Origin: a virus
Taxonomy: Duplodnaviria > Heunggongvirae > Uroviricota > Caudoviricetes
Reading direction: 5' to 3' (one strand)
Virus record (IMG/VR): IMGVR_UViG_3300021400_000048
Span: 56,791-120,790 of that record
Length of the DNA stretch: 64,000 nt
The notes beneath the pieces were generated by a model. The model had not been told where the DNA came from. It made no database searches and worked only from the letters and a program-made list of their open reading frames with translations. This document shows, one piece after another, positions 20,736-37,153 of this stretch (the first letter of the stretch is position 1; the number at the start of each line of letters is the position of its first letter). A program made the translations under genes and the position numbers.

Positions 20736-20748
20736 AATAAGCTCCTTA

Positions 20749-21519: not shown

Positions 21520-21554
21520 ATCAGTTCTCCAATAAATATTATTTAATCAATCAA

Positions 21555-21571
21555 ATAATTTAGCAAATAAA
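21555..21571 (-). promoter_or_regulatory. class A motif TTATTTGCTAAATTATTTG
   Basis: About 35 nt before the ATG at 21519; preceded by hairpin 21575-21600. Confidence 0.55.
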
Positions 21572-21700
21572 AAAAGATGCTAATTATTTTTTAGCACCTT
21601 TAAAATTTAGCTTTTTTTAGTTTTATTCTCTTCTACTAATACTTTATTAACTTTAAATAGAAAATGCGATATATGTCAAATTTTAAGCCTTATTTGACAA

Positions 21701-21715
21701 AATAATTTAGCTGCT
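21701..21715 (-). promoter_or_regulatory. class A variant (CAGCTAAATTATTTTG) next to palindrome 21668-21693
   Basis: Motif copy plus a further AAGCTAAATTTT copy at about 21595. Confidence 0.35.
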
Positions 21716-21720
21716 TAAAT

Positions 21721-21954
21721 TTATTTTGCTCTATTTAAAATTGTAATTTCATCTACATAAAATATATTAGCACCTATATCAGTAGCAGTCAGATGACCTT
21801 CTACTAATACTATATCATCTTCAAAAATTGCAGTAAAGTTAGATAAATAGCAATGGACATCTGTGCCCTTCTTTTTCTTATTATCTTTAATATTAACCGT
21901 AAACCATTGACCATCCGCCCAAGTAACAGTACCTTTAATAATTACTTTATTCAT
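21721..21954 (-). CDS. hypothetical 77-aa protein (TGG-only)
   Basis: ORF track; real TAA stop. Confidence 0.5.
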   Translation of the reverse strand: MNKVIIKGTVTWADGQWFTVNIKDNKKKKGTDVHCYLSNFTAIFEDDIVLVEGHLTATDIGANIFYVDEITILNRAK

Positions 21955-22204
21955 CTACCACCTCATAATTTTTGCTTATAGCTACAATATTAAATAAATC
22001 AACATATTTTTCTACAGGAATACTTTTATCTACTTTAGCACTATAACATTCTGGAATTGTATTAAATACCTCATATCTATCACTACCAAGCTTTAATAAT
22101 TGTGCACAATAATCTGGAATACTGCTAAATGCCTCCCAAATACCAAGCATAACTTTTAAATCAGTTTTTGTTAAGTATACTTTTCTATCTTTTAATTTAA
22201 TCAT
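21947..22204 (-). CDS. hypothetical 85-aa protein
   Basis: ORF track; overlaps neighbours by a few nt (coupled). Confidence 0.5.
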   Translation of the reverse strand: MIKLKDRKVYLTKTDLKVMLGIWEAFSSIPDYCAQLLKLGSDRYEVFNTIPECYSAKVDKSIPVEKYVDLFNIVAISKNYEVVDE

Positions 22205-22206
22205 AG

Positions 22207-22890
22207 TTATTCCTCCGAAAATAAATTATATGGTTTTGGTTTATCATCAACTTCTTCTTTTGGAGCAATCCATTTTATAGTTGGAAAGCCGTTATAAGTT
22301 GTATCAAAAATAAACCAACAATAACAAGCAGCAGAACCAATTTTTTTCTTATTTCCATCTTTATCAAGCTTAAATGTCCCATCTTCATTTTTTTGATAAC
22401 GTTCATCATTTTTATAGCAAGCAACACGTTTCGAGTATACATATACTGTTTTAAGCTTCATCTGTCTATAAATTTTTTCAAGTCGCTCTTGTCCCTCTAA
22501 AAATTGTATCTTTAAAAACATAGCCATTTTTCTACCAGGCCTTAAAACTTTTAGAGCATGCTCTACAATTTCTGTCTGACAGGTATATGGTGGATTAGTA
22601 ATAAGATCACAATCAATATCTTTATATGTAAAGAAATCAATACCAGACTTTCCATAACCATGATCATACAAATCAGTTGAAACAACTGTTTTTCCATATT
22701 CTTCCATTTTCTTTGAAAGATTCCCAGAACCACAGCAAGGCTCTAAAATTGTATCACTAAATTCTTCTACAGCAAATAAATCATCAATACAATCAGGATC
22801 AGTAGAATAAAAATCTGTTACCTCACGCTCTTCTTCACAGTGATTTGATGCACCAAGCATGCGAAATAAATCTTTAGTTGTACGTGGCAT
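22207..22890 (-). CDS. orphan DNA N6-adenine / N4-cytosine methyltransferase (motif I EPCCGSGNL, motif IV NPPY)
   Basis: LITNPPY and ExxxGxGxL motifs in the 227-aa ORF; no adjacent restriction gene. Confidence 0.7.
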   Translation of the reverse strand: MPRTTKDLFRMLGASNHCEEEREVTDFYSTDPDCIDDLFAVEEFSDTILEPCCGSGNLSKKMEEYGKTVVSTDLYDHGYGKSGIDFFTYKDIDCDLITNPPYTCQTEIVEHALKVLRPGRKMAMFLKIQFLEGQERLEKIYRQMKLKTVYVYSKRVACYKNDERYQKNEDGTFKLDKDGNKKKIGSAACYCWFIFDTTYNGFPTIKWIAPKEEVDDKPKPYNLFSEE

Positions 22891-22892
22891 AA

Positions 22893-23315
22893 TTACTCCT
22901 TATAATTTTTCTCAAATTCTTTTTCGAGTCTTACAAAATCTTGATCTGGATAAGCATCATAATAAGCTTGTCTATTAGGATAGTATTCTACCGTCTTTTG
23001 TGTATATTTAGCTTCATTATACATTATAAAATTGTCAAACAACAAATATGGATACTTATAATCATATTCTGTTTCTGAATAATAAGTATCTACTTGCCCA
23101 TTTTTCAGTTTTTTTTCAGTTATATGCCTAAAGTAGTAGTTATCATCTCTATCTTTAAATAATTGATATATTTCTGGAACATAAGTTAATTTAACTGGCC
23201 TACCTTTTGCAATACTTTTACTAAAATATTTCCAGACAGTCATTCTAATAATTTTATCACCAACTTTTAAGCCTAGAGCTTCAATTAATAAATTATAAAC
23301 TTTTTCTGCCTTCAT
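22893..23315 (-). CDS. hypothetical 140-aa protein, first gene behind class B promoter 23331-23350
   Basis: ORF track; RBS AGAGG. Confidence 0.5.
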   Translation of the reverse strand: MKAEKVYNLLIEALGLKVGDKIIRMTVWKYFSKSIAKGRPVKLTYVPEIYQLFKDRDDNYYFRHITEKKLKNGQVDTYYSETEYDYKYPYLLFDNFIMYNEAKYTQKTVEYYPNRQAYYDAYPDQDFVRLEKEFEKNYKE

Positions 23316-23330
23316 ATATAAATAACCTCT

Positions 23331-23350
23331 ATATTATTATACAATATTTT
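23331..23350 (-). promoter_or_regulatory. class B promoter (TTG-TATAAT; coding strand AAAAAATATTGTATAATAATAT)
   Basis: Near-consensus -10 about 20 nt before the ATG at 23315; follows terminator 23369-23394. Confidence 0.6.
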
Positions 23351-23368
23351 TTATATAAATAATTAAAA

Positions 23369-23394
23369 AAAGATAACTATTATTTTAGTTATCT
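23369..23394 (-). terminator. hairpin AAGATAACTA/TAGTTATCTT + T7
   Basis: 3' of the gene ending at 23413. Confidence 0.6.
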
Positions 23395-23412
23395 TTAGCT
23401 TCTTTATTTTAT

Positions 23413-24738
23413 TTAATTTTTAGCAAATTTAAAATTAACTGATTTTGCTTTCAAAACTGCATATATAGCATCTTTTAGCTTTTCATTAATACCGTCATTA
23501 TTTTTAGTCTTATCTATTGCTGGGTCAAATTCTGAAATTAGCTTTCCATTTTCATCATAAGCTACTCAATAAAATTCGCCTAAAATTGGCTCAAGTTCCC
23601 TAAAAGCACTAAATATTTCCATATCATAAGCAGCTCCTGCATTGCCATCATAGTCATTATCTGCTCAACTGTTAGCCTCTGAAGATATACGTTTTGTAAA
23701 TTTTGCTAATAGTTTTTTAAACAAGTCATTTATTTTTACTAATTGCTCATCAGTAAAATACTTGCCTGAATGCTTAATTAAAGTGATCAAATTATTTTTT
23801 GCGTCATCTTTTTCTTTTTCTTTTTGCAGCTTAGCTTTTATGCGTACTTCTTCTTTCTCATAATAAGGTAATGATTTTTGAACAAAAGATAAAATTCTTG
23901 CTAAGACATATTCCTTTAATTGCTTATTATCTATTTTAGCTTCAAATTTTTCTAATTCATTTATTTCATAGCCTGTACCAGTAATATGAAAGCTTTCATT
24001 CAAAAAAACTGGTCGTAGATCATTGCCCTTCGAATTTCCACTATCATCTAATGTATAGAATTCAACATATCAGCTATTAAATATAAATGAAGATTTTCAG
24101 ACAGTATCTGAGTATCATTCACTTTTATATTTTCATAAAGATAAGTCTGCTAAATTAAAATCTGTTCCTTTATTTCTATAGCTCTGCTTATCTGTAGTAA
24201 CACAAAAGGTTGCTAATTTTGCTAATTTAATAACATCTTTATTTTTAACAGCTTCTTGAGCTGCTTCAAAACATTGTGCTTCAATCTCGCTATCTTTAGC
24301 AATTATACGATCAAGAATTTCTTTAGCAATTGCTTTATTTTTTGCTTGTTCTTCCTCGCGTGCCTTTCTTTCAATTTCAGCACGTTTCTTTCTTTCCTCT
24401 TCCGCTTGTTTTTGTTTTTCTTTTTCTTCTGCATCAATATCTTTTGCATTATCTTTAAACTGAAGCACTCAAAGCTTTATTAAAGCTTTTCCAAAATAAT
24501 CGTCTGGATGTTGTTCACAATACTCTTTAATTTTGCCATATGTACCTTTGTTTTTTAGCTTATGCGTAAAAGTCTCAAATATGTTTGATAAACCATTTTC
24601 TTTAATTTCTTTAAAAAAGGTCTCATAAAAGTGTTTATAGCTAATTTCATTATTTTTTGCCATATCTCAAAATATTTTAGTCGCTAATCAACGATCACGC
24701 ACAACTTCAGTTAAATATTTTTTATTTAAATTAGTCAT
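23413..24738 (-). CDS. hypothetical 441-aa protein with a K/E-rich central region; 8 TGA-Trp, 0 TGG
   Basis: ORFs 24469..24663, 24133..24468 and 23665..24003 are in one frame. Hand translation bridges all gaps through TGA only. Start ATG at 24736-24738 behind AGGAGG; stop TAA at 23413. Confidence 0.65.
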
Positions 24739-24748
24739 ATAGCGCCTC

Positions 24749-25489
24749 CTAAATTAAATTAATAGCTGCTTCTAATGCACGTTTTAACTCTTTTACTAAG
24801 TCATCAATACTAAAAATTTTAACAAATAAATTTATTTTATTTCCTGTATTGTTTTCATAATAAGCAGCTTTTACTTTTAAGTCAATTTTTGGTAAATTAT
24901 ATTTAATAAAGTCTAAATCTGAGACTAATTGTTTAGAACAGTCTAAGTCAAATAAGTCATTATCTTCTGCAGTAATTTGTACATCAATAAAGCCATCATA
25001 AAGTTTATTAGTACTATTATCTAAAAGAGTATAGTTAATATTAATAACATCATCAATATCTTTATTATTAGTATTAATTTCTGGGTAATGCTCAAAAAAT
25101 TTTACAGAAAAAGTATAATCATTTCCTCTAGCATTGAATACTCATAAATGTTCTAATAATTTATCTATCATGATAAATTTACTAAGTATCGCACAAGCAT
25201 ATCTTATTAAATCACGCACAGTAATATTTTTCGCATTATTTACAAAATAAGTGTATTTTTTGTCATATAATTTTCTAATAATATTTCTAATAACAAATTC
25301 AGTATTTAGATCAAAAATATAATCATCACGGCGATTAATTCTACTATTAGTCCCAACAATTCATCTTTTTAAAATTTTTTTATTAATTAATTCTTGAACA
25401 AGTTTATCTTTATATATTAATTCAAAAGCTTCTTTATAAACTTGCATATCATCTGACATCTCTTGTCAAGTTGTATTTAAAGTTACCAT
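24749..25489 (-). CDS. hypothetical 246-aa protein (TGA-Trp)
   Basis: AAGAGGAAACGAATAA-ATG start; stop TAG overlapping the AGGAGG of the next gene. Confidence 0.5.
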
Positions 25490-25500
25490 TTATTCGTTTC

Positions 25501-26262
25501 CTCTTAATCTAATAAGTCTTCAATAGCCATCTTAATTATCGCTGGTAAATGTTTAATATCTGTAGTAGAAGATATATGACTATTACTATTATTAGCATTT
25601 TCAATATAAACTTCTATTGTTGTATTTTTTATTAAATCTTCTAATGTAGCAGTTTTTATATTTTTTATATTAATATGGTGTTGGTGTGCTCATCAATTAC
25701 AAATTATTATTTCAAATATGCCATTTTTTGAAGTAAGACTAGTGTTAGCAATATTTTTATTTATACCAGTAATATAGCTATATTTAACAATACTTGGTTT
25801 TATACTAACTGGAGCCTCTGAAAAAATATCACAAGTTAGCCCATAAAAAGTTATTCTTTTATATTGTCATTTACCATTAATATAGTCTAAGTTAGAAAAA
25901 ACTTGTACAATTGATTCAGCAATTAAAAAAGCAACAGCTATATTTGCTTTGATATATTTTATAGCATCTAAAATAGTGACTGTATCATCTAATCTTCCTT
26001 CATTACCTGAGTATGCATAATTTAATAGAGTTATCATTAAAGTCTTATCAGAAAAAGCACCCATAGAATTTGAACACAAAGTCTTAAAACTGCTATATTG
26101 ATAAGTTCATGCTTGATAGTCTATAACAAAATTATACTTATAAATTAATTGTTGCAGGCCAGTATCTTGTTTTCATACCAAATTAAATAGCTCATCTACA
26201 TAATCCTTTGCCAATATTCCTGGCCAAGACATGACTTCAAGTTGTTGTTTTGTTACTGCCAT
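25501..26262 (-). CDS. hypothetical 253-aa protein (6 TGA-Trp), first gene behind class A motif 26294-26309
   Basis: ORF 25867..26079 extended both ways by hand; start MAVTKQQLEVMSWPG behind a GGAG RBS. Confidence 0.5.
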
Positions 26263-26293
26263 AACTAGTCTCCAGTAAATTTTTAATAATCAT

Positions 26294-26309
26294 ATAATTT
26301 AGCAAATAA
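26294..26309 (-). promoter_or_regulatory. class A motif TTTATTTGCTAAATTATATG
   Basis: About 35 nt before the ATG at 26262; directly after the nrdG terminator. Confidence 0.55.
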
Positions 26310-26310
26310 A

Positions 26311-26333
26311 AAAGACAGTAATTAAACTGTCTT
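26311..26333 (-). terminator. hairpin AGACAGT-AATTAA-ACTGTCT + T6 after nrdG
   Basis: Overlaps the nrdG stop codon. Confidence 0.6.
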
Positions 26334-26859
26334 AATTATTATTAGGAATTCCTTCTAAAAATACTTTTTTATTTTGTTCTAATGACTTTTTAACATCAAT
26401 TACTCTTTGATTTCTACTGCCACGCCATCTATTATCATCTGAAATATCTCTTTGCTCTAAAATAAATGGTCCAACGACTACAACATCAATATATTGCATA
26501 ATTTCTAAATCTTTTACTTGTTCCCACTCATAACCTGTATAACACCAGATATCTTTATTTGGTAATTTTTCTTTAACTTTTTTAGCGATATCCAAAAAAC
26601 CATCTATATTGTTTTTGTGAAGTGGCTCTCCACCACAAAAAGTTAAGCCACGATAATACTCATGTGATAATTCTTTAAATAAACTATTTAAAACTGTTTG
26701 ATATTCTGCTTTATAATTTACACCCAAATCAAAGTCCCAAGCATTTTGATTATGACAACCTTTACAATGCAAATCACATCCGCTGCAATAAATTGATAAT
26801 CTTATCCCAGGCCCATCTGAAATTACACATTTTTTAATGTCTAAAATTCTCATAGCCAA
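26332..26859 (-). CDS. nrdG: anaerobic ribonucleotide reductase activating protein (radical SAM; CSGCDLHCKGC)
   Basis: 175-aa ORF, Cys motif, downstream of nrdD; hairpin + T-run terminator follows. Confidence 0.8.
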   Translation of the reverse strand: MAMRILDIKKCVISDGPGIRLSIYCSGCDLHCKGCHNQNAWDFDLGVNYKAEYQTVLNSLFKELSHEYYRGLTFCGGEPLHKNNIDGFLDIAKKVKEKLPNKDIWCYTGYEWEQVKDLEIMQYIDVVVVGPFILEQRDISDDNRWRGSRNQRVIDVKKSLEQNKKVFLEGIPNNN

Positions 26860-27415
26860 CCTCTAAAAATCTAATAAGTAGTGATCCAATAGCATTACCA
26901 ATTATTACAATACCAACTGCTAATAAGCCTTCCCAAGTTAATTCACAGGCACCATAATAGAAGCAGTCGGCAATACTATGCTCCATCGAACTAAGAATAA
27001 ATGCCATTACACAAATTATTACTGGAACACTAGAATCATACTTTTTCTTTAACTGAACAGCCAAATAAATTAAAGCACCACAGCCAATTCCATCAAATAA
27101 TAGTCTATACCATTCTTTTGCAAGTCTTGTATCCATTGCATGAGCTTCGCCTACAAATAGTTTATATAATAATCCACAAATAAAAGCTGTTGCTAAATTA
27201 ACTCCAAGAATAATTAAAGAGTCTAATAATTTTTGTTTATTATTAACATAGCCAATTTTTCCAGTAAATAAATTAGCTTCTAAAATAATTACAGCAATTA
27301 AACCAATACTAAATAAAAAAGCACCAACTATTTTATTTTCACAATTTAAATATATCATGCCAGCTAATGAAATTAATAAACCAGCTAAACTTGATTTTCT
27401 AATTAATTCTAACAT
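26834..27415 (-). CDS. 6-TM membrane protein, 193 aa, between nrdD and nrdG (ECF S-component-like; substrate unknown)
   Basis: ORF track; AGAGGTGAT RBS; class B cassette 27431-27466 immediately upstream. Confidence 0.5.
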   Translation of the reverse strand: MLELIRKSSLAGLLISLAGMIYLNCENKIVGAFLFSIGLIAVIILEANLFTGKIGYVNNKQKLLDSLIILGVNLATAFICGLLYKLFVGEAHAMDTRLAKEWYRLLFDGIGCGALIYLAVQLKKKYDSSVPVIICVMAFILSSMEHSIADCFYYGACELTWEGLLAVGIVIIGNAIGSLLIRFLEVGYENFRH

Positions 27416-27430
27416 TAAAAATCACCTCTA

Positions 27431-27450
27431 TATATTATACAATAAAAAGC
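27431..27450 (-). promoter_or_regulatory. class B promoter TTTTTATTGTATAATATATAG
   Basis: Fused to terminator hairpin 27443-27466 (nrdD stop); 18 nt before the ATG at 27415. Confidence 0.6.
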
Positions 27451-27466
27451 TGTATTTCTACAGCTT
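27443..27466 (-). terminator. hairpin AAAGCTGTA-TTTC-TACAGCTTT after nrdD
   Basis: Overlaps the nrdD stop; its T-run is the class B -10 upstream tract. Confidence 0.6.
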
Positions 27467-28413
27467 TAAATATGCTTTACTCTATCTTCTACTTCTTTTT
27501 GCTTTCCATAATTAAAAGCAGTTTTATAGTTGCCAGTCAAATATCCTGTTACTCTTCTTAATTGTTGTATATTATGACTTCCACATGCTGGACATTTATC
27601 ATTAAATTCACCAGTATAGCCACAGTCTAAACAAGTATCATTTGGAATATTAATTGCAAAATATGGAATATCTTTATCCATTGCATAATTAACTAATTGT
27701 TCTAAGGCTTCTAAATTACCTGTTGCAGCTGAGCTTAACTCAACATAAGTAATACAGCCAGCATTTGAATATCCTGTTAATTGTGATTCAATGTCTATTT
27801 TTTCAAAAGCAGTGACTTTTTCCCAAACAGGAACATGAATACTATTTGTAAAATATTCACGATCTGAAACATTTGGAATTACACCATATTTTTCTTTAAA
27901 CTTTTTCATTGCTGTATAACATAAGTTTTCAGCAGGAGTATAATAAACACCAAAGTTTAAATGATATTGCTTTTTAAATTCAGCGCATCTATCTTTAAAT
28001 AATTGTTCAATTCTCTTAGCTAATTCCATACCTTCAGGTGTACATTGATTTTTGCCAATTAACAATTCAAGAGTTTCAGCTAAAGCAATTTGTCCAATAA
28101 CTAAAGTTCCATGTTTTAAAGCACTTCTAATACCTTGCTCAGGATGATAACCAATCATTGTATTATTTTCATACATAAATTTTGCTGAGCTTGGGCTTTG
28201 AGCACACATATATTCATAACGTTCAATTAACATATCTTTTGCTTCATGAATTTTGGCATCTAAAATAGCCATAAACGCATCAACATCTCTGTCTGCCTCC
28301 ATTGCTAAGGTAGGTAAAATAATTGTGACTGGGGCTAAATTTCCACGTCCATCTTTTGTTTGCGGGTTAACTCCTGGCTCTGCATTAATATCTGCGCCAT
28401 TTGCAGTTCTACA
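27466..28413 (-). CDS. nrdD: anaerobic ribonucleotide reductase, exon 2 (glycyl-radical RVTGYL, C-terminal Zn ribbon CLDCGY...CPACGSH)
   Basis: Exon 2 starts at the CRTANGADINAEPG...DGRGNLAPVTIILPTLAMEA region, which matches the remembered E. coli NrdD MGCRSFLG...DGRNNLGVISLNLPRIALEA. Confidence 0.75.
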   Translation of the reverse strand, partial: CRTANGADINAEPGVNPQTKDGRGNLAPVTIILPTLAMEADRDVDAFMAILDAKIHEAKDMLIERYEYMCAQSPSSAKFMYENNTMIGYHPEQGIRSALKHGTLVIGQIALAETLELLIGKNQCTPEGMELAKRIEQLFKDRCAEFKKQYHLNFGVYYTPAENLCYTAMKKFKEKYGVIPNVSDREYFTNSIHVPVWEKVTAFEKIDIESQLTGYSNAGCITYVELSSAATGNLEALEQLVNYAMDKDIPYFAINIPNDTCLDCGYTGEFNDKCPACGSHNIQQLRRVTGYLTGNYKTAFNYGKQKEVEDRVKHI

Positions 28414-28543
28414 CATGTTCTCAAATATTACTATTTGCACTGACTATATGTTCCATACTTCTGTATGGCCCTCCGCTTGGAACTGGTGCTTATCTCCAGC
28501 TCTACTCCGCTACACTCATCACGGATAGTCGATACACATTTAG

Positions 28544-29149
28544 TTAGATAAAATCATTTTCTTCATAAGCAAATTTATATTTATTCATAAAAGGTGTTTT
28601 TAACATATTCATGCAACGTCTTGTAACAAATTGATGATTTCCATAATTGAAATATCTTCTTGCGTCTTCAGCTGTTTCAAAATGAATAATTTCACCAGTT
28701 TCAATATTTAAACACTTAACTGCGTGAGCATTTGGATTTTTTCCACTCATTTTAGTTTGTCTAATTTTCTCTTTAATATCAAGCATTTCATCTTCAGTTT
28801 TACCTGCATATGTGTTACCACCACAACTAACTAAAGGATCTTGCACATTATAACCTTCTTCAATAGTATTTAATTTGAATACTCAATAATGTTCTCTTTC
28901 AGTTAATTGTTTTCTTGTACAATTTTCTAAATGCTCAAGTTCTTCAATTTGAAAATTATCAACACCATATTTTCTAATAGCTCTTGCAAACTTTGTATCT
29001 ATTTGATATTTATTACCAATAGAATCTTTTTGATGTTTTAATCATCTTCATTCAAGTGTTTTTGTTGTTTGACCAATATAAATTTTTTGATTAATTAAAT
29101 TAGTTATTTTATAAATATAACCAATTTCAAATGTTTTTGCTTTTGTCAT
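28544..29149 (-). CDS. GIY-YIG homing endonuclease (I-TevI-like; GYIYKITN...KIYIGQT; NUMOD3-like KMSGKNPNAH), 201 aa, 3 TGA-Trp
   Basis: Hand translation MTKAKTFEIGYIYKITNLINQKIYIGQTTKTLEWRWLKHQKD...EREHYWVFKLN. The TGA codons sit where I-TevI has Trp (FEKRWKRHFKD, ERENFWIKELN). Own class A motif at 29166-29184. Confidence 0.75.
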
Positions 29150-29165
29150 ATGCAATACCGTCCTA

Positions 29166-29184
29166 CAATTAATTTAGCAAATAA
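29166..29184 (-). promoter_or_regulatory. class A motif inside the nrdD intron, before the homing-endonuclease ORF
   Basis: TTATTTGCTAAATTAATTG, identical core to 20115-20132; about 20 nt before the ATG at 29149. Confidence 0.5.
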
Positions 29185-29318
29185 TTTTAGGGGTGTTGTA
29201 CATTTTTTATCTAACATTTAGCACGGTCTCATCCATTACAGGACCTAACCGTTAGCCGCTTTCGCGACACCCTTTAAGCAAGGTTCGAAGGGTTTTAGAT
29301 GGGCTATAGTTTACGCTT

Positions 29319-30554
29319 ACCCATCGTAGAAAAATATGTTTTAGGATCATTCCTATCATAACCAGCATTATTAGACCAGTCTACATTTGCATAATTTGGA
29401 TATAATCGTTTTGATGTAGATTTTAATGCTAATTGATACATATCATAATTTGGTGTTCCAGGTTTATCATTAACACCTTTCATATATTGGAATATACCAC
29501 AAGGGAAAATTGGTGTTCTATGAAGTTTTCCAACACCTTTTAAACTACCTTCAAGCAATGATTTAATAACCATTCTTCCTTCAGTTGATGTGCAAGTTCC
29601 GTAGTTGATGCTTGTAAATGGCAATTGGTTGCCCGAACGTGATTGTAGTGTGTTTAGATTGTGATACATTCCTTCAACTGCTTGATCTAATTCACGTTTA
29701 GTCATTTTTAAAGCATACTTATAGGCACCTTCATACTTTTGATATTCTTTAGCATCAATTGGTCTATTTATTGCTTCATAGCAGAAAAAAGTATCTTTTG
29801 GTTCATCTATATTTTCAACAAATTCAAGTCCATCTTTAAAATGTTTTGCAAATGATTTTCTAACATAAGGAACCATTGTCCAGTCTAAATGTGTTGCAGA
29901 AACACCACCAAATTGTTGTAAGCTTTGTAATTGGAATATTACAGCAACTAATTGAAATGCTGTATTTACTGAGCTTGCTGGCCTTATATCTGTCTGTCTT
30001 GTATTGAAGCCTTTTGCAAGTAAATCATCAAATGGAATTGATAAACAATTGTGCATTCCAACAGCATAACTATCTAAATCATGAATATAAATTTCATTAT
30101 TTAAATGATTATTTCTTGATTTTTCAGACATACAATAATTTAAAGCAAGTTCTTTCATTAATACTGAATCAGCTTCACCTTTTCTACCACCAAATGAGTG
30201 TTCGTCAACATTCGCGTTCTGATTAACAATATGCATACCAGAAAGCTTATCACCAATTTCCTTCATCATTTTAGACTTGCCTTGTCTAATTCTCGTTCTT
30301 TGGTCTCTATACAAGATATATTGTTTTGCAGTAGCTTTAAACTTACTAACTAATAAAGCATGCTCAACTAAATCTTGAATTTGTTCAACATTTAAATCTG
30401 TAATGTTTTCACATTTACTTACTACTGAAGCTACAATTTTATCAATTTCTTCTTCAGTCATTTCTAAACTTCTACTATTAGCTTTACTAATTGCAGATCT
30501 AATTTTGGAACTATCAAAATCACGTTTAGTTCCGTCACGTTTTGTAATTAACAT
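29319..30554 (-). CDS. nrdD: anaerobic ribonucleotide reductase, exon 1 (ATP-cone N-terminus)
   Basis: ORF 29304..30554 minus its last 5 codons, which are intron; AAAGGTGAT RBS. Confidence 0.75.
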
Positions 30555-30660
30555 AAAAAATCACCTTTCTGGAGTCAGTTATCTGTTAGTCTCCAAATTT
30601 ATAGATAAATAAGACCGCTATCAACATCTTTATTATCAATAGCGGTTAATTTTATTGCAT

Positions 30661-30676
30661 TTAATTTAGCACAAAA
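30661..30676 (-). promoter_or_regulatory. class A variant (TTTTTGTGCTAAATTAAATG) upstream of nrdD
   Basis: One mismatch to the consensus; about 110 nt before the ATG at 30554; followed by an 8-bp hairpin ACCGCTAT/ATAGCGGT in the leader. Confidence 0.4.
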
Positions 30677-30688
30677 ATTTATATAATT

Positions 30689-31363
30689 TTAACTGCAAAT
30701 TTTTGTAAAAGCAGCTTTAAAATCTTGTAGCATAGTTGGTCAACTTGCTTGCACTGTAAGCTGACGCGGGCCAATTCCAAGTGCTTTTAAATTATCACTG
30801 TTTGCTGCAACTAATTTTAATTTTATTGGTAAATTAATATTATATTTAATTGAATTATTATTTCAACTGCCTCTGCGTAAAAATTCATCAAAAGATAAAA
30901 ATGTTAAAAGACATTTTATACTTGCTACACTTTGTTTACCACGCTTATTATTTCACATAGCAAATGAAACAGTTAATTTTCCTTCACTTAAACTATCTCA
31001 AGCTGTATTATAATTAGATCCTAAAATATCACCACCAAAATCAAAAAATCTAGCAGGTCCTAATTTTTCAACAAGCTTATCAGCCATTAAAATATTTGCT
31101 AAACAATATAAAATATATTGACTTGCCGCTGATAAATCAAAACAATTATTTTCAATATTACTTAAGCAGCTTTTAAAAAATCTTGAAATAACACTATCAA
31201 AATCTGTAAAAATTTCTGACATTGCATGAATATTGCCTCAAGTTCCTCACCTGCTGTGTGGAATTTTATTGACATCAATTAAAGAATCTATCTCACTTTT
31301 TAACTTTGGCTCTTCATTTATTAAAAAATTTATAAGATCTATTGGTTGTGCAGGTTTTCCCAT
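30689..31363 (-). CDS. hypothetical 224-aa protein, 6 TGA-Trp
   Basis: ORF 30998..31222 extended by hand; start MGKPAQPIDL; class A motif 31410-31426 upstream. Confidence 0.5.
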
Positions 31364-31409
31364 ACTAATTCTCCAAAATAAAAGCTAAATAAAAAGCTCC
31401 TTTATACTA

Positions 31410-31426
31410 TTAATTTAGCAAATAAA
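31410..31426 (-). promoter_or_regulatory. class A motif TTTATTTGCTAAATTAATAG
   Basis: About 50 nt before the ATG at 31363; after the SPFH gene stop. Confidence 0.55.
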
Positions 31427-31448
31427 GAAGCTTATTATTAACTGTTTT

Positions 31449-32546
31449 CTATGGAATAACTACAGTTGATACATCATCTGAACTCATATATGTTTCTGGT
31501 AAAATACCATTCCATTGTTGAGTATAGTAATACTTAATTAGATTTTCTGCACCAACTTTTAATTCAGCATCAGATACTAATGTTCCATCTGGTTTAACTA
31601 ACGTATTAATACCTTCATTATTTGTAACAACTGTCCAACCATTAATTGAAGCTAGTCTTTGCATTGCAATACTTGCTTCTTTCTTACCTTGATATTCAGC
31701 ACTATCAGCACCAATTTGTGCAACATCTTTGTCTGCTTGTGCTTTAATTCTTGCAACTTCTGCTTCAGCTTCAGCTCGCTTTGTAGCAGCTTCTGCTTCA
31801 GCTTCTGCTTGCAAAATAGCAACTTGTTTTTGATTTTCTGCTTCAGCTAATTTTTGTTCTTGTTCAATTAGAGCTTGTTGCTTCTTTTGTTCTTGAGCAA
31901 CTTTAGCTGCTACTGCAGCTTCAAAATCATCGGTAAAATCAATATTAGTTAATACAATAGTTTTAACATTAACATAATAGCCAGTATTGATACTTGCATC
32001 TACTGTTTGACTGATATTTGCACTAATTTGACTTCTATTGTTAATTACATCAGTCGCTGTATTTTGTGCAAATACTGATTTAATATTATCTAATGCAATA
32101 GATGTAATTTTTGATTCAAGTTTTTCGATTGAACCATATTCAGTAGCAATCTTATCAACTTGTGCAGCATCAATAGTGTATTGTAAATCAGCAGTTACAC
32201 CAATAATCTGATTATCCTTAGAGTAAGTCTGAGTTTCAATATTAATTTCCCTAACCTTAGTATCATACTTTTCATATTTATTAGTAAAATATGAATCCCA
32301 ATGAACACCAGCTTCTCTTGTACCAGTGACCTTTCCTAAATGTCTAACAACTGCAACTTCACCAGTATCTACTTGATGAATGTTACCAGGAATTGCAATT
32401 GTCAAAATTAAGAATAAAATTGCTAAAATACTTCCAGCGATTTTTCCGCCATTACTTTCATCTTCAGCGAATGATACGCCAGCCCAAATACCTGTACCAA
32501 TTGTAGCTAAAATAAATACTACAAATAAAATAATTTTAATAGCCAT
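31449..32546 (-). CDS. SPFH / band-7 (prohibitin-HflKC-like) membrane protein with an Ala/Glu coiled coil
   Basis: N-terminal TM, SPFH-like core, AEAEAEAATKRAEAEAE coiled coil; real TAG stop. Confidence 0.65.
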   Translation of the reverse strand: MAIKIILFVVFILATIGTGIWAGVSFAEDESNGGKIAGSILAILFLILTIAIPGNIHQVDTGEVAVVRHLGKVTGTREAGVHWDSYFTNKYEKYDTKVREINIETQTYSKDNQIIGVTADLQYTIDAAQVDKIATEYGSIEKLESKITSIALDNIKSVFAQNTATDVINNRSQISANISQTVDASINTGYYVNVKTIVLTNIDFTDDFEAAVAAKVAQEQKKQQALIEQEQKLAEAENQKQVAILQAEAEAEAATKRAEAEAEVARIKAQADKDVAQIGADSAEYQGKKEASIAMQRLASINGWTVVTNNEGINTLVKPDGTLVSDAELKVGAENLIKYYYTQQWNGILPETYMSSDDVSTVVIP

Positions 32547-34891
32547 TATTTAATTTCCTTTCGTGCTAAAAATTTTTCTCTCATTGAAATAATATCTGTT
32601 TTATAAGGATATTCTTTTGTTTCAGGATCTCTATCATTTTTATAGCATTCTCTACAAAAACCGTAGAATAAATTCTTTTCAGGAGTTAGTAATGAACCAA
32701 CTCTACTATAACCACCACAGCGTAATGTAGAATCTGCAACACCTCTTAAATGTTTCCAATTATTATAGTATTCAGATTTACATTTTGTCATAAAGCCATC
32801 TTCATCTACAAACACAAAGCCTTCAATATAATTTCCATTATATTTATATTCTTCATCTTGTAATGCATTATATAACTCATTAAATTCATCAAAATCTTTT
32901 AATGTATAAGCTAATTCTTTAACTGGACAACCAATTTCAGTTGCAAGTTGTTTTAAAGCATTATAAGGCATAGTTTCAAACTTTAAGTCATTTCTAATTG
33001 CATCAAGTAAAACTACTTTTGGTTTGTCATATTTAATAATATGTGGGTCATTTTCTGGATCAATACATTCAAATACTAATGACCAAGATAAATTATGCTT
33101 GCCAAATAGCTTTGCAGTTTCATAACAACCTTTAAGTGTTGCTAATAGCTTTTCTTTATAAGGCTCAATAATAGTCTTAATATAACCAGCATAATCTCCA
33201 GTATTAGTTGATTTAGAAGCAATAAATAAATCATCATTCTTATAATCGTAAGAAACAATAGCTAAGAAACCATTTTCTTTAACATAAGCTTGAACTGGGA
33301 ATTTTAATTTAGATCTTAAGTTTACAATATTAGTTGCTTTTGTTTCATTAATTCTGAAAAACTTTTCATATGAACGAGCCATAATTTTATTATTTTCAGT
33401 ATCAATAAATAAACCACGAGCTAAAACTGTTTGTCTATTCCAGTTAGCAGAATAAAAAGCTTCTCTTGTAAAGTTAAATGATGAAATTCCATTTGCTAAT
33501 TGCTTTTCACTTACAAATTGATTTTCTCTTAAATATTTAACTGCATCTTCAACAGTTTCAACTTTAACAAGACCTAATTCTTTTTCTTCTTGTGTAATTG
33601 GTTGAACACTTTCTAATTCAACAGAATTCCATTTATACATAGTATTTAGACCAACACAAATTCTAGAACCTTTTGGAAATGGCCCATCATCTGTTGTATA
33701 GCCATATTCTGGCATATAACCAAGATGTTCTAATTCAACAATTCTTAACTTACCACCAAACTCAACACCACCTTCAAGATTAAATACTCTATCAGCATAT
33801 TGAATAGGATCTTCATTTGTATTTCTGTGACCATGAATTAAATATTGATTATCTTTTGTAGTTGTCATCCAAGTATCTGCAACTGTTGAATAATCTTTAT
33901 ATTGACCTACGCCATTAATAAATGCATATGTTGGAATTGTCATTAATGTCTCTGGAAGTGATGGAATACCGCCATGACAAGCCATAATTTCCATATTACC
34001 CCATTTAATATATGACATTTGACGAAGTTTTGAACAAAATACTCTTGCTTGTTTTGGAGTAATATTCCCAGCAATTAATTCAGGTTTTGTTTTTTCTTCA
34101 AATTCCATTGATTTAGATTTTAATTCATTTCCATAGTCTTTTAAATGTTTTTCATGATTGCCTTCTAATAAACAAACATTTGGTTTATCTTTAATAGACA
34201 TTAAAAAATTGAATACTTCTACATTTTGATGGCCTCTGTCTAAATAATCACCGATAAAAATATATTCAGTATCATCTTTTAAACCATCTTTGAAATCAGG
34301 ATATTGCATTAAAGTATCATAACAGCCATGAATATCACCAATAAAAACTAATTTTCTATATGATGATAAATCAACTGGCTCAGCTTTAATAATATCTTTA
34401 AATTCTTCCGGTTTAATTATAGTAAGACCAGACGGAACAGGTTGAGACTCAAATCTTGCATAAATATTTTTAACTGCTGCTTCTGGAACAATTTTATATT
34501 GGTCTCTCATTTTATTTTGTGCTAAACAAGTTTCAAGTGGAACTGTTGTAAAGTCAACAACATAAATATGATAACGATAAATAGCAGCAATATCTTTATA
34601 TTGTTTTAAATCTTTTGTTTTTGAAGCTGTTGCATCAATAACTGTCATTTCACCACGCTTCATTCTATATTCTAAAATATTGAATAAAGTTGCCCAAACA
34701 GCATTTTCAGTAGCAGGTTCTTGCTCAATACAAAAACTACCATCTGGTTGCCATTTCTTTGAGCTGTGTAAAACTCTTAATTCATCAGGACAAATAGTAT
34801 AAGCTTCTAAATGATTTTCTCTAATCCAAGTAGATTTACCTGCACCAGGAGCACCACGAGTAATAAATAAGGCTCTAATAATAATCACCAC
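32546..34891 (-). CDS. Pnkp-like RNA/DNA end-healing and sealing enzyme: P-loop 5' kinase (GAPGAGKST) + calcineurin-type phosphoesterase (GDIHG, GDYLDRG, GNHE) + C-terminal ligase-like adenylyltransferase (KENG)
   Basis: Motifs in the 781-aa ORF in the order kinase-phosphatase-ligase, as in bacterial Pnkp; alternative GTG start; 8 TGG, 0 TGA. Confidence 0.7.
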   Translation of the reverse strand: MVIIIRALFITRGAPGAGKSTWIRENHLEAYTICPDELRVLHSSKKWQPDGSFCIEQEPATENAVWATLFNILEYRMKRGEMTVIDATASKTKDLKQYKDIAAIYRYHIYVVDFTTVPLETCLAQNKMRDQYKIVPEAAVKNIYARFESQPVPSGLTIIKPEEFKDIIKAEPVDLSSYRKLVFIGDIHGCYDTLMQYPDFKDGLKDDTEYIFIGDYLDRGHQNVEVFNFLMSIKDKPNVCLLEGNHEKHLKDYGNELKSKSMEFEEKTKPELIAGNITPKQARVFCSKLRQMSYIKWGNMEIMACHGGIPSLPETLMTIPTYAFINGVGQYKDYSTVADTWMTTTKDNQYLIHGHRNTNEDPIQYADRVFNLEGGVEFGGKLRIVELEHLGYMPEYGYTTDDGPFPKGSRICVGLNTMYKWNSVELESVQPITQEEKELGLVKVETVEDAVKYLRENQFVSEKQLANGISSFNFTREAFYSANWNRQTVLARGLFIDTENNKIMARSYEKFFRINETKATNIVNLRSKLKFPVQAYVKENGFLAIVSYDYKNDDLFIASKSTNTGDYAGYIKTIIEPYKEKLLATLKGCYETAKLFGKHNLSWSLVFECIDPENDPHIIKYDKPKVVLLDAIRNDLKFETMPYNALKQLATEIGCPVKELAYTLKDFDEFNELYNALQDEEYKYNGNYIEGFVFVDEDGFMTKCKSEYYNNWKHLRGVADSTLRCGGYSRVGSLLTPEKNLFYGFCRECYKNDRDPETKEYPYKTDIISMREKFLARKEIK

Positions 34892-34910
34892 CTTTTATTA
34901 TATTTTCTTT

Positions 34911-34930
34911 ACATATTATTATACAATGAA
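34911..34930 (-). promoter_or_regulatory. class B promoter (CATTGTATAATAATATG)
   Basis: Before the Pnkp-like gene start at 34891. Confidence 0.5.
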
Positions 34931-34960
34931 AAAAGACCTTTTAGAGGCCTTTTTAAAAAA

Positions 34961-35365
34961 TTATTTAACTTTTTCTTCTGCCTTTACATTTTCAATAGCT
35001 TCATCTAACACAGCATCAACTTCTTTTTCAGCAGCTTCTTTAGCTTTTTTCTTTTCAGCAATAAGTTCAGCTTTATGTTGTTTAATATATCTTTCAATGC
35101 ATTTTCTTAAGGCTGGGCTCATTCTTGACCATTCATTCTTACCTAATTCGCCAAAGAAATAAGCTTTTGCTGCAGGTTCAATATTTACAGTACTTGTATT
35201 AAGTCTTGATTGTAATTGTTTTTGTCGCTTAATAGCTTTTAGTGATGGCGTAGGTGGTGCTAAATGTTCTATAGGCTCATTTGAAAATTCTGGTTCAATA
35301 GCAGTTGAATTCTTTTCTGCTTCAATTTCTTCTGGAGTTTTTGTTCTTGTGTCAAGTTCTTTCAT
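34961..35365 (-). CDS. hypothetical 134-aa K/E-rich protein
   Basis: ORF track; real TAA. Confidence 0.45.
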   Translation of the reverse strand: MKELDTRTKTPEEIEAEKNSTAIEPEFSNEPIEHLAPPTPSLKAIKRQKQLQSRLNTSTVNIEPAAKAYFFGELGKNEWSRMSPALRKCIERYIKQHKAELIAEKKKAKEAAEKEVDAVLDEAIENVKAEEKVK

Positions 35366-35379
35366 TTTAGTTTCCTCTC

Positions 35380-36645: not shown

Positions 36646-36647
36646 AA

Positions 36648-37070: not shown

Positions 37071-37090
37071 AAAACCTCCATTATTTTACA

Positions 37091-37110: not shown

Positions 37111-37153
37111 GACAGATTTATTTAAAAATCTGCCTCATTTTTAATATTTTTAC

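What the first reader, a model, noticed from the sequence alone, without database searches (positions are those of the whole stretch)
28414..29318. nrdD interrupted by a group I intron with a GIY-YIG endonuclease under its own late-class promoter
The two track ORFs 29304..30554 and 27466..28440 are the N- and C-terminal parts of one NrdD. The junction ...FSTMG|CRTANG... matches the remembered E. coli NrdD block ...PFMGCRSFLG...DGRNNLGVISLNLPRIALEA. It puts U before the 5' splice site and G at the intron 3' end.

The 201-aa GIY-YIG/NUMOD3 ORF inside the intron is the only TGA-containing reading frame in an otherwise TGG-only operon. It also has a private class A motif (29166-29184). This parallels T4 nrdD (sunY) with I-TevII, and late-promoter expression of T4 intron endonucleases.
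Basis: partly seen in the sequence, partly recalled or inferred. Interest (0 to 1): 0.7.

Follow-up and report, generated by a model that had tools for sequence, protein, structure and literature searches.

The report
Mobile self-splicing intron in phage nrdD

Summary
Window 28414..29318 (- strand, 905 nt) is an insertion in nrdD. The flanking ORFs match Pfam NRDD positions 2-263 and 264-562. A collinear relative (L010, 85% nt identity) and 64 other phage nrdD genes read TYFSTMGCRTANG without a break.

The insert is a group IA-type intron. It has a U.G pair at the 5' splice site, P10 and a terminal G. Covariation across 19 homologues at the same site supports P3-P9 (92.7% of cells paired, 32 compensated pairs, 0/500 shuffles). 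Rfam finds nothing in the window. An ORF-less homologue scores 31 bits, below the 50-bit gathering score.

The 201-aa ORF lies in the P6a loop and is an I-TevI-like GIY-YIG endonuclease. NUMOD3 was not detected. Its three Trp codons are all TGA. Orthologues in what look like standard-code phages use only TGG.

The upstream motif TATTTGCTAAATTA is real. In the window it precedes TGA-using genes (p = 0.0016). It is kept upstream of the endonuclease gene in every close orthologue, inside a hairpin that pairs the ribosome-binding region. Late timing is inferred, not shown.

Borges et al. already reported TGA-recoded intron endonucleases in early genes of Agate phages. This is a new member of a known kind, and interest is moderate to low.

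The parts
29319..30554 (-). nrdD exon 1 (412 codons: ATP-cone plus the N-terminal half of NrdD). It ends ...FSTMG, and its last base U pairs with G in P1.
   Evidence: Pfam ATP-cone 7.7e-21 and NRDD profile 2-263; sequence
28414..29318 (-). Group I (IA-type) intron, 905 nt. The exon-1 reading frame stops at a UAG 15 nt inside it (29304..29306).
   Evidence: Empty site in L010 and 65 uninterrupted relatives; structure and covariation; element coordinates
27466..28413 (-). nrdD exon 2 (315 codons plus stop). Its first codon is the Cys equivalent to T4 NrdD Cys290. It contains the glycyl-radical domain.
   Evidence: Pfam NRDD 264-562 and Gly_radical; BLASTP against T4 NrdD
29299..29309 (-). Internal guide sequence. 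GCCCAU (29299..29304) pairs with exon AUGGGU (29319..29324) to form P1 with a U.G at the splice site. CUAUA (29305..29309) pairs with exon-2 UGUAG (28409..28413) to form P10.
   Evidence: P1 100% paired, invariant; P10 71.6% paired over the family, 5/5 in the window
29286..29292 (-). P3 5' strand CCCUUCG. Its partner CGGAGGG lies at 28469..28475.
   Evidence: 98.5% of cells paired, 6 of 7 pairs with compensatory change
29257..29283 (-). Two hairpins between P3 and P4, here called P3.1 (29271..29283) and P3.2 (29257..29266, GAAA loop). The P3.1 loop GCUUA pairs with the P7.2 loop UAAGC.
   Evidence: 100% paired, and all 3 loop-loop pairs covary
29223..29252 (-). P4 (ACGG/CCGU) enclosing J4/5 UUAG, the P5 hairpin and J5/4 GAGA.
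   Evidence: 100% paired; G-C to A-U exchange in P4
29205..29215 (-). P6a 5' strand GUUAGAUAAAA. Its partner UUUUAUCUAAC at 28543..28553 is the last codons plus the stop codon of the endonuclease ORF, so the ORF sits in the P6a loop.
   Evidence: A 10-13 bp stem with compensatory changes in six orthologous introns
29157..29196 (-). Hairpin whose loop holds the promoter-like motif and whose 3' arm holds the Shine-Dalgarno-like UAGGA (29161..29165).
   Evidence: MFE fold -11.3 kcal/mol with a weak z-score of -1.56. An equivalent hairpin with different stem sequences is present in five orthologues.
29170..29183 (-). Motif TATTTGCTAAATTA (resembling an extended -10, TGnTAAATT), 20 nt upstream of the endonuclease ATG.
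   Evidence: Ten coding-strand intergenic copies in the window. Association with TGA-using genes, Fisher p=0.0016. Conserved upstream of the orthologous endonuclease genes in L223, L224, L228 and L230, with one base changed in L227.
28544..29149 (-). GIY-YIG homing endonuclease ORF, 201 aa under code 4. TGA (= Trp) codons lie at 29048..29050, 29042..29044 and 28883..28885.
   Evidence: Pfam PF01541; PHROG homing endonuclease 2.7e-19; I-TevI catalytic domain 1MK0, E 1.1e-9, with TGA codons 36 and 89 aligned to I-TevI Trp
28442..28537 (-). 3' catalytic core: J6/7 GUGUAUC, P7 GACUA (28526..28530) with UAGUC (28442..28446), P7.1 (28506..28525), P7.2 (28480..28502), P3 3' strand, and P8 (28453..28468).
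   Evidence: the same region of the ORF-less homologue L102 aligns to Rfam RF00028
28414..28437 (-). P9 hairpin (28422..28437, GUAA loop) and the 3' tail ending in the terminal G at 28414.
   Evidence: 99.1% paired, 5 of 6 pairs compensated
27446..27467 (-). Terminator-like hairpin directly after the nrdD stop codon. It would end a transcript started inside the intron.

Best explanation
This is a mobile group I (IA-type) intron inserted between the Gly and Cys codons of the NrdD active-site loop (...MG|CR...; the Cys equals T4 Cys290). The sequence and comparisons show a precisely bounded 905-nt insertion. They also show a ribozyme fold shared with dozens of introns at the same nrdD site, and an I-TevI-like GIY-YIG endonuclease gene in the P6a loop.

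The rest is inferred. The nrd operon, written in standard code, is transcribed with the other standard-code nucleotide-metabolism genes, which are presumably early. Ribosomes leave the pre-mRNA at a UAG 15 nt into the intron. The RNA folds and splices itself out, restoring one NrdD.

The endonuclease is kept silent at that stage by two devices. Its ribosome-binding region is paired in a hairpin. Its TGA codons 34, 36 and 89 stop translation well before ribosomes could reach the P6a and P7 strands.

Later, a promoter-like element in the loop of that hairpin would start a shorter transcript with a free ribosome-binding site. This is the same motif that precedes the TGA-using, virion-like genes. 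The phage's switch to TGA = Trp then lets the endonuclease be made. It would cut intron-less nrdD alleles of co-infecting relatives, such as L010, and repair would copy the intron in.
For: Boundaries: Pfam NRDD 2-263 and 264-562; 65 uninterrupted homologues; an exact empty site in the collinear relative L010.

Ribozyme: P1 with U.G, P10 and a terminal G. More than 30 homologous introns sit at the identical site, with or without ORFs and with different ORF types. On a fixed-register core alignment of 19 distinct sequences, 92.7% of cells pair, 32 pairs carry compensatory changes, 0/500 shuffles reach this, and slid controls give 33-44%. The ORF-less homologue L102 matches RF00028 at 31.4 bits, E 1.7e-6.

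Endonuclease. The TGA codons align to Trp in I-TevI and to TGG Trp in orthologues. Orthologues in what look like standard-code phages have no TGA, L226/L227 have 2 of 3, and the window has 3 of 3.

Genome coding is bimodal. TGG-only genes are ligases, a methyltransferase and Nrd. TGA genes are fibre-like, LRR-type, spanin-like or unknown.

The motif precedes TGA genes (p=0.0016) and is conserved with its hairpin upstream of orthologous endonuclease genes. The P6a stem is built from the ORF's last codons.

Precedents: T4 intron endonucleases use a late promoter placed inside a hairpin that sequesters the ribosome-binding site (PMC2988022). A recoded intron endonuclease in an early gene of Agate phages is described in bioRxiv 10.1101/2021.08.26.457843.
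Against: No RNA evidence of splicing is available. Rfam RF00028 gives no hit in the window at any threshold, and the ORF-less homologues stay below the gathering score. The hairpin around the motif is not significant on its own (z -1.56). The motif also sits upstream of the endonuclease gene in what look like standard-code phages (L223, L224, L230), so it is not tied to recoding as such. A one-mismatch variant lies 108 nt upstream of nrdD itself. No suppressor tRNA is in the window; the only tRNA is tRNA-Thr. Promoter identity, start site and timing are untested.
Confidence: 0.85

Rival explanations
1. A free-standing endonuclease gene has split nrdD into two separately translated polypeptides that reassemble, as described for Aeromonas phage Aeh1 nrdA split by mobE. 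There would be no splicing.
For: Split, still-functional phage RNR genes without introns are on record (PMC3653736). The intron's last three bases are an in-frame ATG directly before exon 2, and a GTG-initiated ORF (27466..28440) exists. Rfam finds no intron in the window.
Against: The flanks of the ORF form a group I core conserved with strong covariation across 19 sequences. ORF-less versions of 246-338 nt occupy the same site, which a free-standing gene cannot explain. The terminal ATG is not conserved: relatives have ACG, GCG, TTG or GTG. The break falls inside the MG|C active-site loop rather than between domains. No Shine-Dalgarno sequence precedes exon 2.
Confidence: 0.04
2. The intron splices, but the endonuclease gene is a decaying pseudogene. 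Its three TGA codons would be ordinary nonsense mutations, so nothing is regulated and the intron is no longer mobile.
For: Endonuclease genes in introns often degenerate; T4 I-TevIII is an example (PMC2988022). ORF-less derivatives of this intron are common. No suppressor tRNA is visible in the window.
Against: All three TGA codons fall at Trp positions: two at Trp conserved in I-TevI, and all three at TGG in orthologues. There are no TAA or TAG stops and no frameshifts over 201 codons, and the GIY-YIG domain aligns over residues 12-105 with the I-TevI catalytic domain. In the same window, 21 other long ORFs use TGA as sense 80 times. A 95%-identical copy keeps the frame with 2 TGA and 1 TGG.
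Confidence: 0.06
3. The phage infects a host that natively uses code 4. TGA in the endonuclease gene would then simply reflect local AT-biased codon use, and the TGG-only state of the nrd operon would reflect recent acquisition from a standard-code donor, with no temporal meaning.
For: G+C is 29.5%, and half of all Trp codons are TGA (83 TGA against 86 TGG). The nrdD exons are about 73% identical at the DNA level to phages of Thomasclavelia, which I recall to be a relative of the Mollicutes.
Against: Coding is sharply bimodal by gene block. Twenty-seven genes have TGG only and 21 are TGA-dominated. The split follows function and the promoter-like motif, which drift after transfer would not produce. 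The same pattern is kept in relative L010. The published survey found such phages to be predicted to infect standard-code hosts.
Confidence: 0.05

Closest known systems
Phage T4 nrdD (sunY) group IA2 intron encoding I-TevII
   Same: A group I intron in a phage anaerobic ribonucleotide reductase gene carrying a GIY-YIG endonuclease. In T4 the endonuclease genes are driven by middle or late promoters embedded in the intron, and their ribosome-binding sites are sequestered in a hairpin on longer transcripts (PMC2988022).
   Different: The insertion site differs: T4 is at about codon 172-181, whereas here the site is at the codon equal to T4 Cys290. In T4 the ORF lies 3' of the core, and Rfam finds the contiguous T4 core at 105 bits. 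Here the ORF is in P6a. There is no recoding in T4. The relationship is analogy, not orthology.
Phage T4 td intron with I-TevI
   Same: By my recollection the td intron also carries its ORF in the P6a loop (untested here), as this one does. The endonuclease catalytic domain is the closest solved relative (1MK0, E 1.1e-9). A late promoter sits inside a hairpin that hides the ribosome-binding site on early transcripts.
   Different: The host gene, homing site and promoter sequence differ. This endonuclease is shorter (201 aa). No zinc finger or NUMOD3 was detected. Silencing is reinforced by TGA codons.
TGA-recoded 'group I intron endonuclease inserted in an early gene' of Agate phages (Borges et al., bioRxiv 10.1101/2021.08.26.457843)
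   Same: A gut phage with TGA = Trp in late modules and standard code in replication and nucleotide-metabolism genes. An intron endonuclease preferentially uses TGA, and was proposed to be translated only late.
   Different: The paper does not name the interrupted gene, the intron structure or any promoter. Whether this window belongs to the Agate clade could not be tested. The conserved motif-in-hairpin upstream of the endonuclease gene and the TGG-to-TGA series among orthologues are additions made here.
Thomasclavelia phage TR-TP1/TP2 nrdD intron with an HNH endonuclease (PQ571309, PQ571310)
   Same: These are the nearest deposited phages (nrdD about 73% nt identity). Their nrdD is also split by an intron-like insert carrying an endonuclease gene, and a similar TATTTGCTCAATTT element precedes that ORF.
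   Different: The insertion is 4 nt upstream (ACCAU|GGGU...). The guide sequence differs, the P7.1 is longer, and the endonuclease is HNH instead of GIY-YIG. The deposited annotation lists two NrdD fragments and no intron.

Membership tests
Group I intron | 5' splice site follows a U that forms a U.G wobble with the internal guide sequence in P1 | tested here: met
   Exon AUGGGU pairs with intron GCCCAU. The pair is 100% conserved in 19 homologues. Being invariant, it gives no covariation evidence.
Group I intron | Intron ends in G (omega G), with P10 pairing of the guide sequence to the 3' exon | tested here: met
   G at 28414. All family members end in G. P10 CUAUA/UGUAG is 5/5 in the window, with 71.6% of cells paired across the family.
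Group I intron | Conserved core: P3-P8 and P4-P6 domains with the P3/P7 pseudoknot | tested here: met
   P3, P4, P5, P7, P7.1, P7.2, P8 and P9 are 98-100% paired. There are 32 pairs with compensatory change, 0/500 shuffles reach this, and slid controls give 33-44%. P6/P6a is covered.
Group I intron | Score at or above the Rfam RF00028 gathering threshold (50 bits) | tested here: not met
   No hit in the window at gathering or at E<=10, whether whole or in halves. The ORF-less homologue L102 scores 31.4 bits, E 1.7e-6. Controls: the T4 nrdD core scores 105 bits and many ORF-less phage introns score 55-108 bits, whereas TR-TP1, which also has a mid-core ORF, is missed.
Group I intron | Guanosine-dependent self-splicing | not testable with these tools
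   Needs an in vitro splicing assay or RNA-seq.
GIY-YIG homing endonuclease (I-TevI-like) | GIY-YIG catalytic domain above the family threshold, with conserved catalytic residues | tested here: met
   PF01541 scores 29.3 bits against a cut-off of 22.6. Residues 12-105 align to I-TevI 1MK0/1LN0 with the IY..YIG, RW..H, ERE..W and GYN motifs kept. PHROG homing endonuclease 2.7e-19.
   No NUMOD3 hit in Pfam at E<=10. Some homologues carry PF07453 instead.
GIY-YIG homing endonuclease (I-TevI-like) | Cleaves the intron-less allele and promotes homing | not testable with these tools
   Indirect evidence only: relatives occur with and without the intron, and the same intron plus endonuclease gene is found in another gene, luxS.
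Orthologue of the T4 sunY intron / I-TevII | Same insertion site in nrdD | tested here: not met
   T4 exon 2 aligns continuously across window residues 285-726, and the T4 intron lies at codons ~172-181.
Stop-codon-recoded (TGA = Trp) phage late gene class | In-frame TGA at positions that are Trp in homologues, inside an otherwise intact ORF | tested here: met
   Codons 36 and 89 align to Trp in I-TevI. All three are TGG in orthologues in L223 and L228.
Stop-codon-recoded (TGA = Trp) phage late gene class | Phage-encoded means of decoding TGA (suppressor tRNA, release factor or TrpRS) and late expression | not testable with these tools
   Only tRNA-Thr(UGU) is in the 64-kb window. The rest of the genome is not available and there are no expression data.

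The most novel reading that the evidence does not exclude
The intron carries a portable three-part timing cassette for its endonuclease. The first part is a promoter of the class used by this phage group's TGA-coded virion genes. The second is a hairpin that places this promoter in its loop and the ribosome-binding site in its 3' arm. The third, in recoded phages only, is conversion of every Trp codon to TGA. The first two parts travel with the intron between phages of different genetic code and even between target genes (nrdD and luxS). The TGA codons also keep ribosomes away from the P6a strand that is built from the ORF's own last codons, which would protect splicing. A 9-nt match between the ribosome-binding region (TTGTAGGAC) and the homing site (TTGTAGAAC) could in addition be an autorepression operator of the I-TevI kind.
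Probability: 0.4. Interest if true: 0.5.

Novelty: new member of a known kind. Interest (0 to 1): 0.35.

Why it matters
It gives a cleanly delimited, structure-supported example of how a selfish element fits into a phage that changes its genetic code mid-infection. The endonuclease gene in an 'early' standard-code operon has switched all its Trp codons to TGA, while orthologues in what look like standard-code phages keep TGG. That supports the published idea that recoding acts as a translational timer.

In practice, annotation pipelines will report two NrdD fragments and a truncated endonuclease here. Rfam's group I model misses this whole intron subfamily, so similar introns are probably under-counted in gut-phage genomes.

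The insertion at the catalytic cysteine codon, with a different intron 4 nt away in Thomasclavelia phages, is another case of homing elements converging on sequences that cannot mutate.

Tried and rejected
1. Rfam scans of the window found no group I hit. This covered the whole window at gathering, 1.15 kb at E<=10, and the 5' and 3' halves separately. I treated this as a false negative after controls.
2. A stem AUGUACA/UGUGUAU enclosing the ORF was my first reading. I dropped it because GUGUAUC is the conserved J6/7 and the 11-bp GUUAGAUAAAA/UUUUAUCUAAC stem covaries in orthologues.
3. I first read CCCUU.../AAGGG as P2. Comparison showed CCCUUCG is the P3 5' strand and the hairpin lies after it.
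4. P5 as GGUC/GACC overlapped P4 and was replaced by GUCC/GGAU.
5. A MAFFT alignment of full-length ORF-less introns (A1) misaligned P5, P6 and P8 and gave spurious counts. It was replaced by a parsed fixed-register core alignment.
6. I did not attempt a covariance model of the whole intron, because about 270 positions would exceed the calibration limit.
7. My first P10 register was off by one, giving 17.9% paired. It was corrected.
8. The generic sigma-70 scan is uninformative in this AT-rich DNA: 41 sites found against 31 expected.
9. NUMOD3 was not found.
10. The hairpin around the motif is not significant on its own against shuffles. I relied on conservation in orthologues instead.
11. I could not assign the window to the named Agate clade.
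Full report
**1. What is there**

On the minus strand, ORF 30554..29304 and ORF 28440..27466 are the two halves of one class III ribonucleotide reductase. Translated up to 29319, the first matches Pfam ATP-cone and NRDD profile positions 2-263. Translated from 28413, the second matches NRDD positions 264-562 and the glycyl-radical domain. The joined protein reads ...TYFSTMG|CRTANG....

A scan of viral contigs with the joined protein returned 596 relatives. The 80 best all have nrdD in one piece. In 65 of them I located the motif, and it is continuous TYFSTMGCRTANG.

The closest is L010, from a 237-kb IMG/VR contig. It has 91% protein identity and about 85% DNA identity, and it is collinear on both sides. 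It has the exact empty site: window 29320 and 28413 are neighbours in L010.

The bases on each side of both junctions differ, so the insertion is 29318..28414 (905 nt) without ambiguity. The exon-1 frame runs 15 nt into the insert and stops at UAG.

**2. Is it a group I intron?**

Rfam says nothing. There was no hit at gathering on the whole window. There was none at E<=10 on 1.15 kb, and none on either half alone.

Controls explain this. The same model finds the T4 nrdD intron core at 105 bits, and finds many ORF-less phage introns. It misses the Thomasclavelia phage TR-TP1 intron, which also has an ORF in the middle of its core.

By eye, exon AUGGGU pairs with intron GCCCAU, giving U.G at the splice site. 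The adjacent CUAUA pairs with exon-2 UGUAG to form P10, and the intron ends in G.

A pattern taken from the P7-P7.2 region found relatives in viral, metagenome and genome collections. A pattern from the 5' half found about 35 more.

All sit at the same nrdD position (ATGGGT|AAG...G|TGY). Some lack an ORF (246-338 nt). Others carry a GIY-YIG or an HNH-like ORF (766-905 nt).

One ORF-less member, L102 from a Selenomonadales MAG, matches RF00028 at 31.4 bits, E 1.7e-6. That is below the 50-bit gathering score. Its P6-P7-P3'-P8-P7'-P9 part aligns well, while the 5' half is misaligned.

I parsed 28 members into fixed-length core segments. I aligned 19 distinct ones (A2) and tested a hand-derived structure:
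- 92.7% of 1140 cells form standard pairs.
- Every helix except a mis-registered P10 is 98-100% paired.
- 32 pairs carry compensatory changes.
- No shuffle in 500 reaches any measure.
- Sliding the partners by 1-3 columns drops pairing to 33-44%.

The corrected P10 is 71.6% paired overall and 5/5 in the window.

The fold is P1, P3, two hairpins between P3 and P4, P4/P5, P6/P6a, P7, P7.1, P7.2, P8 and P9. P7.1/P7.2 between P7 and the P3 3' strand is the group IA arrangement, by my knowledge of the classification. P3.1 is listed among the optional helices of group I introns (PMC3873408).

The loop of the first extra hairpin (GCUUA) pairs with the P7.2 loop (UAAGC), and all three tested pairs covary. 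I regard the group I assignment as secure at the sequence level. Splicing itself is untested.

**3. The site**

The first codon of exon 2 is the Cys that aligns with T4 NrdD Cys290 in ...SPMGCRS.... By established knowledge of class III reductases, this is the active-site radical cysteine.

The T4 nrdD intron is elsewhere, at about codons 172-181. T4 aligns without a break across window residues 285-726. The T4 comparison is therefore functional, not orthologous.

In Thomasclavelia phages TR-TP1/TP2, the nearest deposited genomes, a different intron sits 4 nt upstream (ACCAU|GGGUUGU). It has a different guide sequence and an HNH endonuclease.

**4. The ORF**

The ORF 29149..28544 encodes 201 aa if TGA is read as Trp. 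Evidence for its identity:
- Pfam GIY-YIG, 29.3 bits against a cut-off of 22.6.
- PHROG 'homing endonuclease', 2.7e-19.
- I-TevI catalytic domain 1MK0, E 1.1e-9, with the catalytic motifs kept. TGA codons 36 and 89 align to I-TevI tryptophans.

NUMOD3 is not detected even at E<=10.

The ORF lies in the loop of P6a. The 3' strand of that 11-bp stem is the ORF's last codons plus its stop (GAU UUU AUC UAA C). The stem is kept, with compensatory changes, in six orthologous introns.

**5. Recoding**

Under code 4 the window holds 59 long minus-strand ORFs with 83 TGA and 86 TGG codons, and the use is sharply bimodal. Twenty-seven genes use only TGG, and 21 are TGA-dominated.

The TGG-only genes with a PHROG function are nucleotide-metabolism enzymes: DNA ligase, RNA ligase/kinase, a methyltransferase, a radical-SAM protein and Nrd. 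The TGA genes are mostly of unknown function. They include a 903-aa fibre-like repeat protein, a leucine-rich-repeat protein and a spanin-like protein.

Within the nrd operon only the endonuclease gene has TGA: 3 TGA and 0 TGG.

Orthologues tell the story:
- Five endonucleases in sister introns have 0 TGA and 2-3 TGG.
- The closer orthologues in L223, L224, L228 and L230 (65-84% identical) have 0 TGA. Judged from the few kilobases held, these phages look standard-coded.
- A 95% identical copy (L226/L227) has 2 TGA and 1 TGG.
- The window has 3 of 3.

L010, the intron-less relative, shows the same mosaic coding.

The idea is already published. In TGA-recoded Agate phages, Borges et al. found that 'a group I intron endonuclease ... 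inserted in an early gene' preferentially uses TGA. They proposed that in-frame stops delay its production until late (bioRxiv 10.1101/2021.08.26.457843).

**6. The motif**

TATTTGCTAAATTA lies at 29170..29183. The core TTTGCTAAATTA occurs, with at most one mismatch, ten times on the coding strand in intergenic DNA. It usually sits just after terminator-like hairpins and 23-59 nt before a start codon. It resembles an extended -10 element (TGnTAAATT). That is my reading, not a test.

All seven Trp-containing genes that directly follow a copy use TGA, against 14 of 41 other genes (Fisher p = 0.0016). One variant copy lies 108 nt upstream of nrdD, followed by a hairpin. Relatives L010-L013 keep the motif at equivalent places, in front of TGA-using genes.

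The motif also stands about 25-35 nt upstream of the endonuclease start in the close orthologues for which upstream sequence is held. It is exact in L223, L224, L228 and L230, and one base is changed in L227. This includes the apparently standard-code phages, and it includes a copy of the intron that splits luxS instead of nrdD.

In all six, the motif lies in the loop of a hairpin. The hairpin's 3' arm covers the Shine-Dalgarno or start region, and the stem sequences differ between copies. In the window alone this hairpin is not significant against shuffles.

[quoted passage not shown] 'Own promoter' is therefore a well-supported inference, and 'late' is an inference by association.

**7. Mechanism and rivals**

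The most likely course, inferred from the above, is as follows.
- Early, in standard code, the pre-mRNA is made and ribosomes stop at the UAG just inside the intron.
- The intron splices and NrdD is restored. The endonuclease stays silent through the hairpin and the TGA stops, which also keep ribosomes off the P6a and P7 strands.
- Later, the internal promoter and the code switch allow endonuclease synthesis, and the intron homes into intron-less alleles such as L010's.

Three rivals were considered.
- A free-standing endonuclease gene with two NrdD polypeptides. This is contradicted by the covarying ribozyme, by the ORF-less copies at the same site, and by the lack of a conserved start for exon 2.
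- A decaying endonuclease pseudogene. This is contradicted because every TGA sits at a Trp position in an otherwise intact ORF.
- A native code-4 host. This is contradicted by the bimodal, function-linked codon use.

**8. Novelty**

nrdD is the RNR gene most often found split in phages (PMC3653736), and gut jumbo phages have nrdD cut into up to four pieces by group I introns (PMC12880540). Intron-borne GIY-YIG endonucleases with late promoters and hairpins that sequester the ribosome-binding site are textbook T4 biology, and the recoded intron endonuclease is in Borges et al.

What this work adds:
- the exact site, at the catalytic Cys codon;
- a covariation-backed structure for an intron subfamily that Rfam does not reach;
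- the conserved motif-in-hairpin cassette that travels with the intron;
- a TGG-to-TGA series among orthologues.

It is a new member of a known kind, and interest is moderate to low.

Noticed in passing
window 13700..62200 (- strand): The whole window is a mosaic of TGA = Trp gene blocks (13722-21519, 23413-26262, 30689-31363, 39409-47648) and TGG-only blocks (22207-23315, 26332-30554 apart from the endonuclease gene, 31449-39181, 47924-62207). The pattern is that of a stop-codon-recoded phage. No suppressor tRNA is in the window; the only tRNA is tRNA-Thr(UGU) at 63108..63184.
   Followed up: partly
window 47677, 41993, 31411, 30662, 26295, 21556, 20119, 19110, 18103 (- strand): Intergenic copies of TTTGCTAAATTA sit directly after terminator-like hairpins or T-runs and 30-59 nt before start codons. 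At 31411, and more clearly at the homologous L010 site, the flanks form an inverted repeat (GUCUCCUUU...AAAGGAGAC) that puts the Shine-Dalgarno sequence in the 3' arm. This is the same logic as in the intron.
   Followed up: partly
window 30614..30673 (- strand): A one-mismatch motif variant (TGTGCTAAATTA) lies between the stop of the upstream TGA-coded gene and a 13-bp terminator-like hairpin, 108 nt before the nrdD start. Its role is unclear: a promoter followed at once by a terminator, or a remnant.
   Followed up: no
L093 (~8710-9666 in the match orientation), L094, L095, L101: Relatives have a second interruption of nrdD at about residue 573/574 of the window protein, with an intron of the same P7.1/P7.2 type in L101. 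The window itself is uninterrupted there.
   Followed up: no
L230 2583..3964: The same intron type, with a 77%-identical endonuclease and the same upstream motif, splits a luxS gene (81 + 79 aa). The phage contig also encodes SAM synthetase, thymidylate synthase and Thy1. The intron's guide sequence there is again AGCCCAUC and the downstream exon starts TGTAGAAC, which suggests that part of the nrdD target sequence travelled with it or is mimicked.
   Followed up: partly
L002, L003, L006, L008: Several IMG/VR phage loci carry three to six Rfam-recognised group I introns within a few kilobases, apparently in multiply interrupted genes.
   Followed up: no
L001 (PQ571309) 3932..4790: The Thomasclavelia phage TR-TP1/TP2 nrdD is annotated as two separate NrdD CDSs plus an HNH endonuclease. 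The sequence fits an intron inserted 4 nt upstream of the window's site, and TATTTGCTCAATTT precedes the HNH ORF.
   Followed up: partly
window 29314..29319 and 28487..28491 (- strand): The sequence spanning the 5' splice site (U|AAGC) is identical to the P7.2 loop segment (UAAGC) that pairs with the P3.1 loop GCUUA. The P3.1 loop could therefore pair with either. Covariation favours the P7.2 partner, as seen in L102, L110 and L120. The conservation of AAGYG at the intron start is unexplained.
   Followed up: partly
window 29160..29168 versus 29319/28406..28413: TTGTAGGAC, which overlaps the endonuclease's Shine-Dalgarno region, matches 8 of 9 bases of the homing-site sequence T|TGTAGAAC. In T4, I-TevI represses its own late promoter through an operator that resembles its homing site. 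Here the match could be chance.
   Followed up: no
L093 (source coordinates 6214..9066): The phage contig carrying the HNH-type sister intron has an array of at least 17 tRNA genes and a 'skipping-rope' RNA hit next to nrdD.
   Followed up: no
window 14955..17666 (- strand): A 903-aa TGA-containing ORF has many repeats of a ...SGDYNDLxNKP(T/D)... motif, typical of a fibre-like protein. It gives only weak PHROG hits of unknown function.
   Followed up: no
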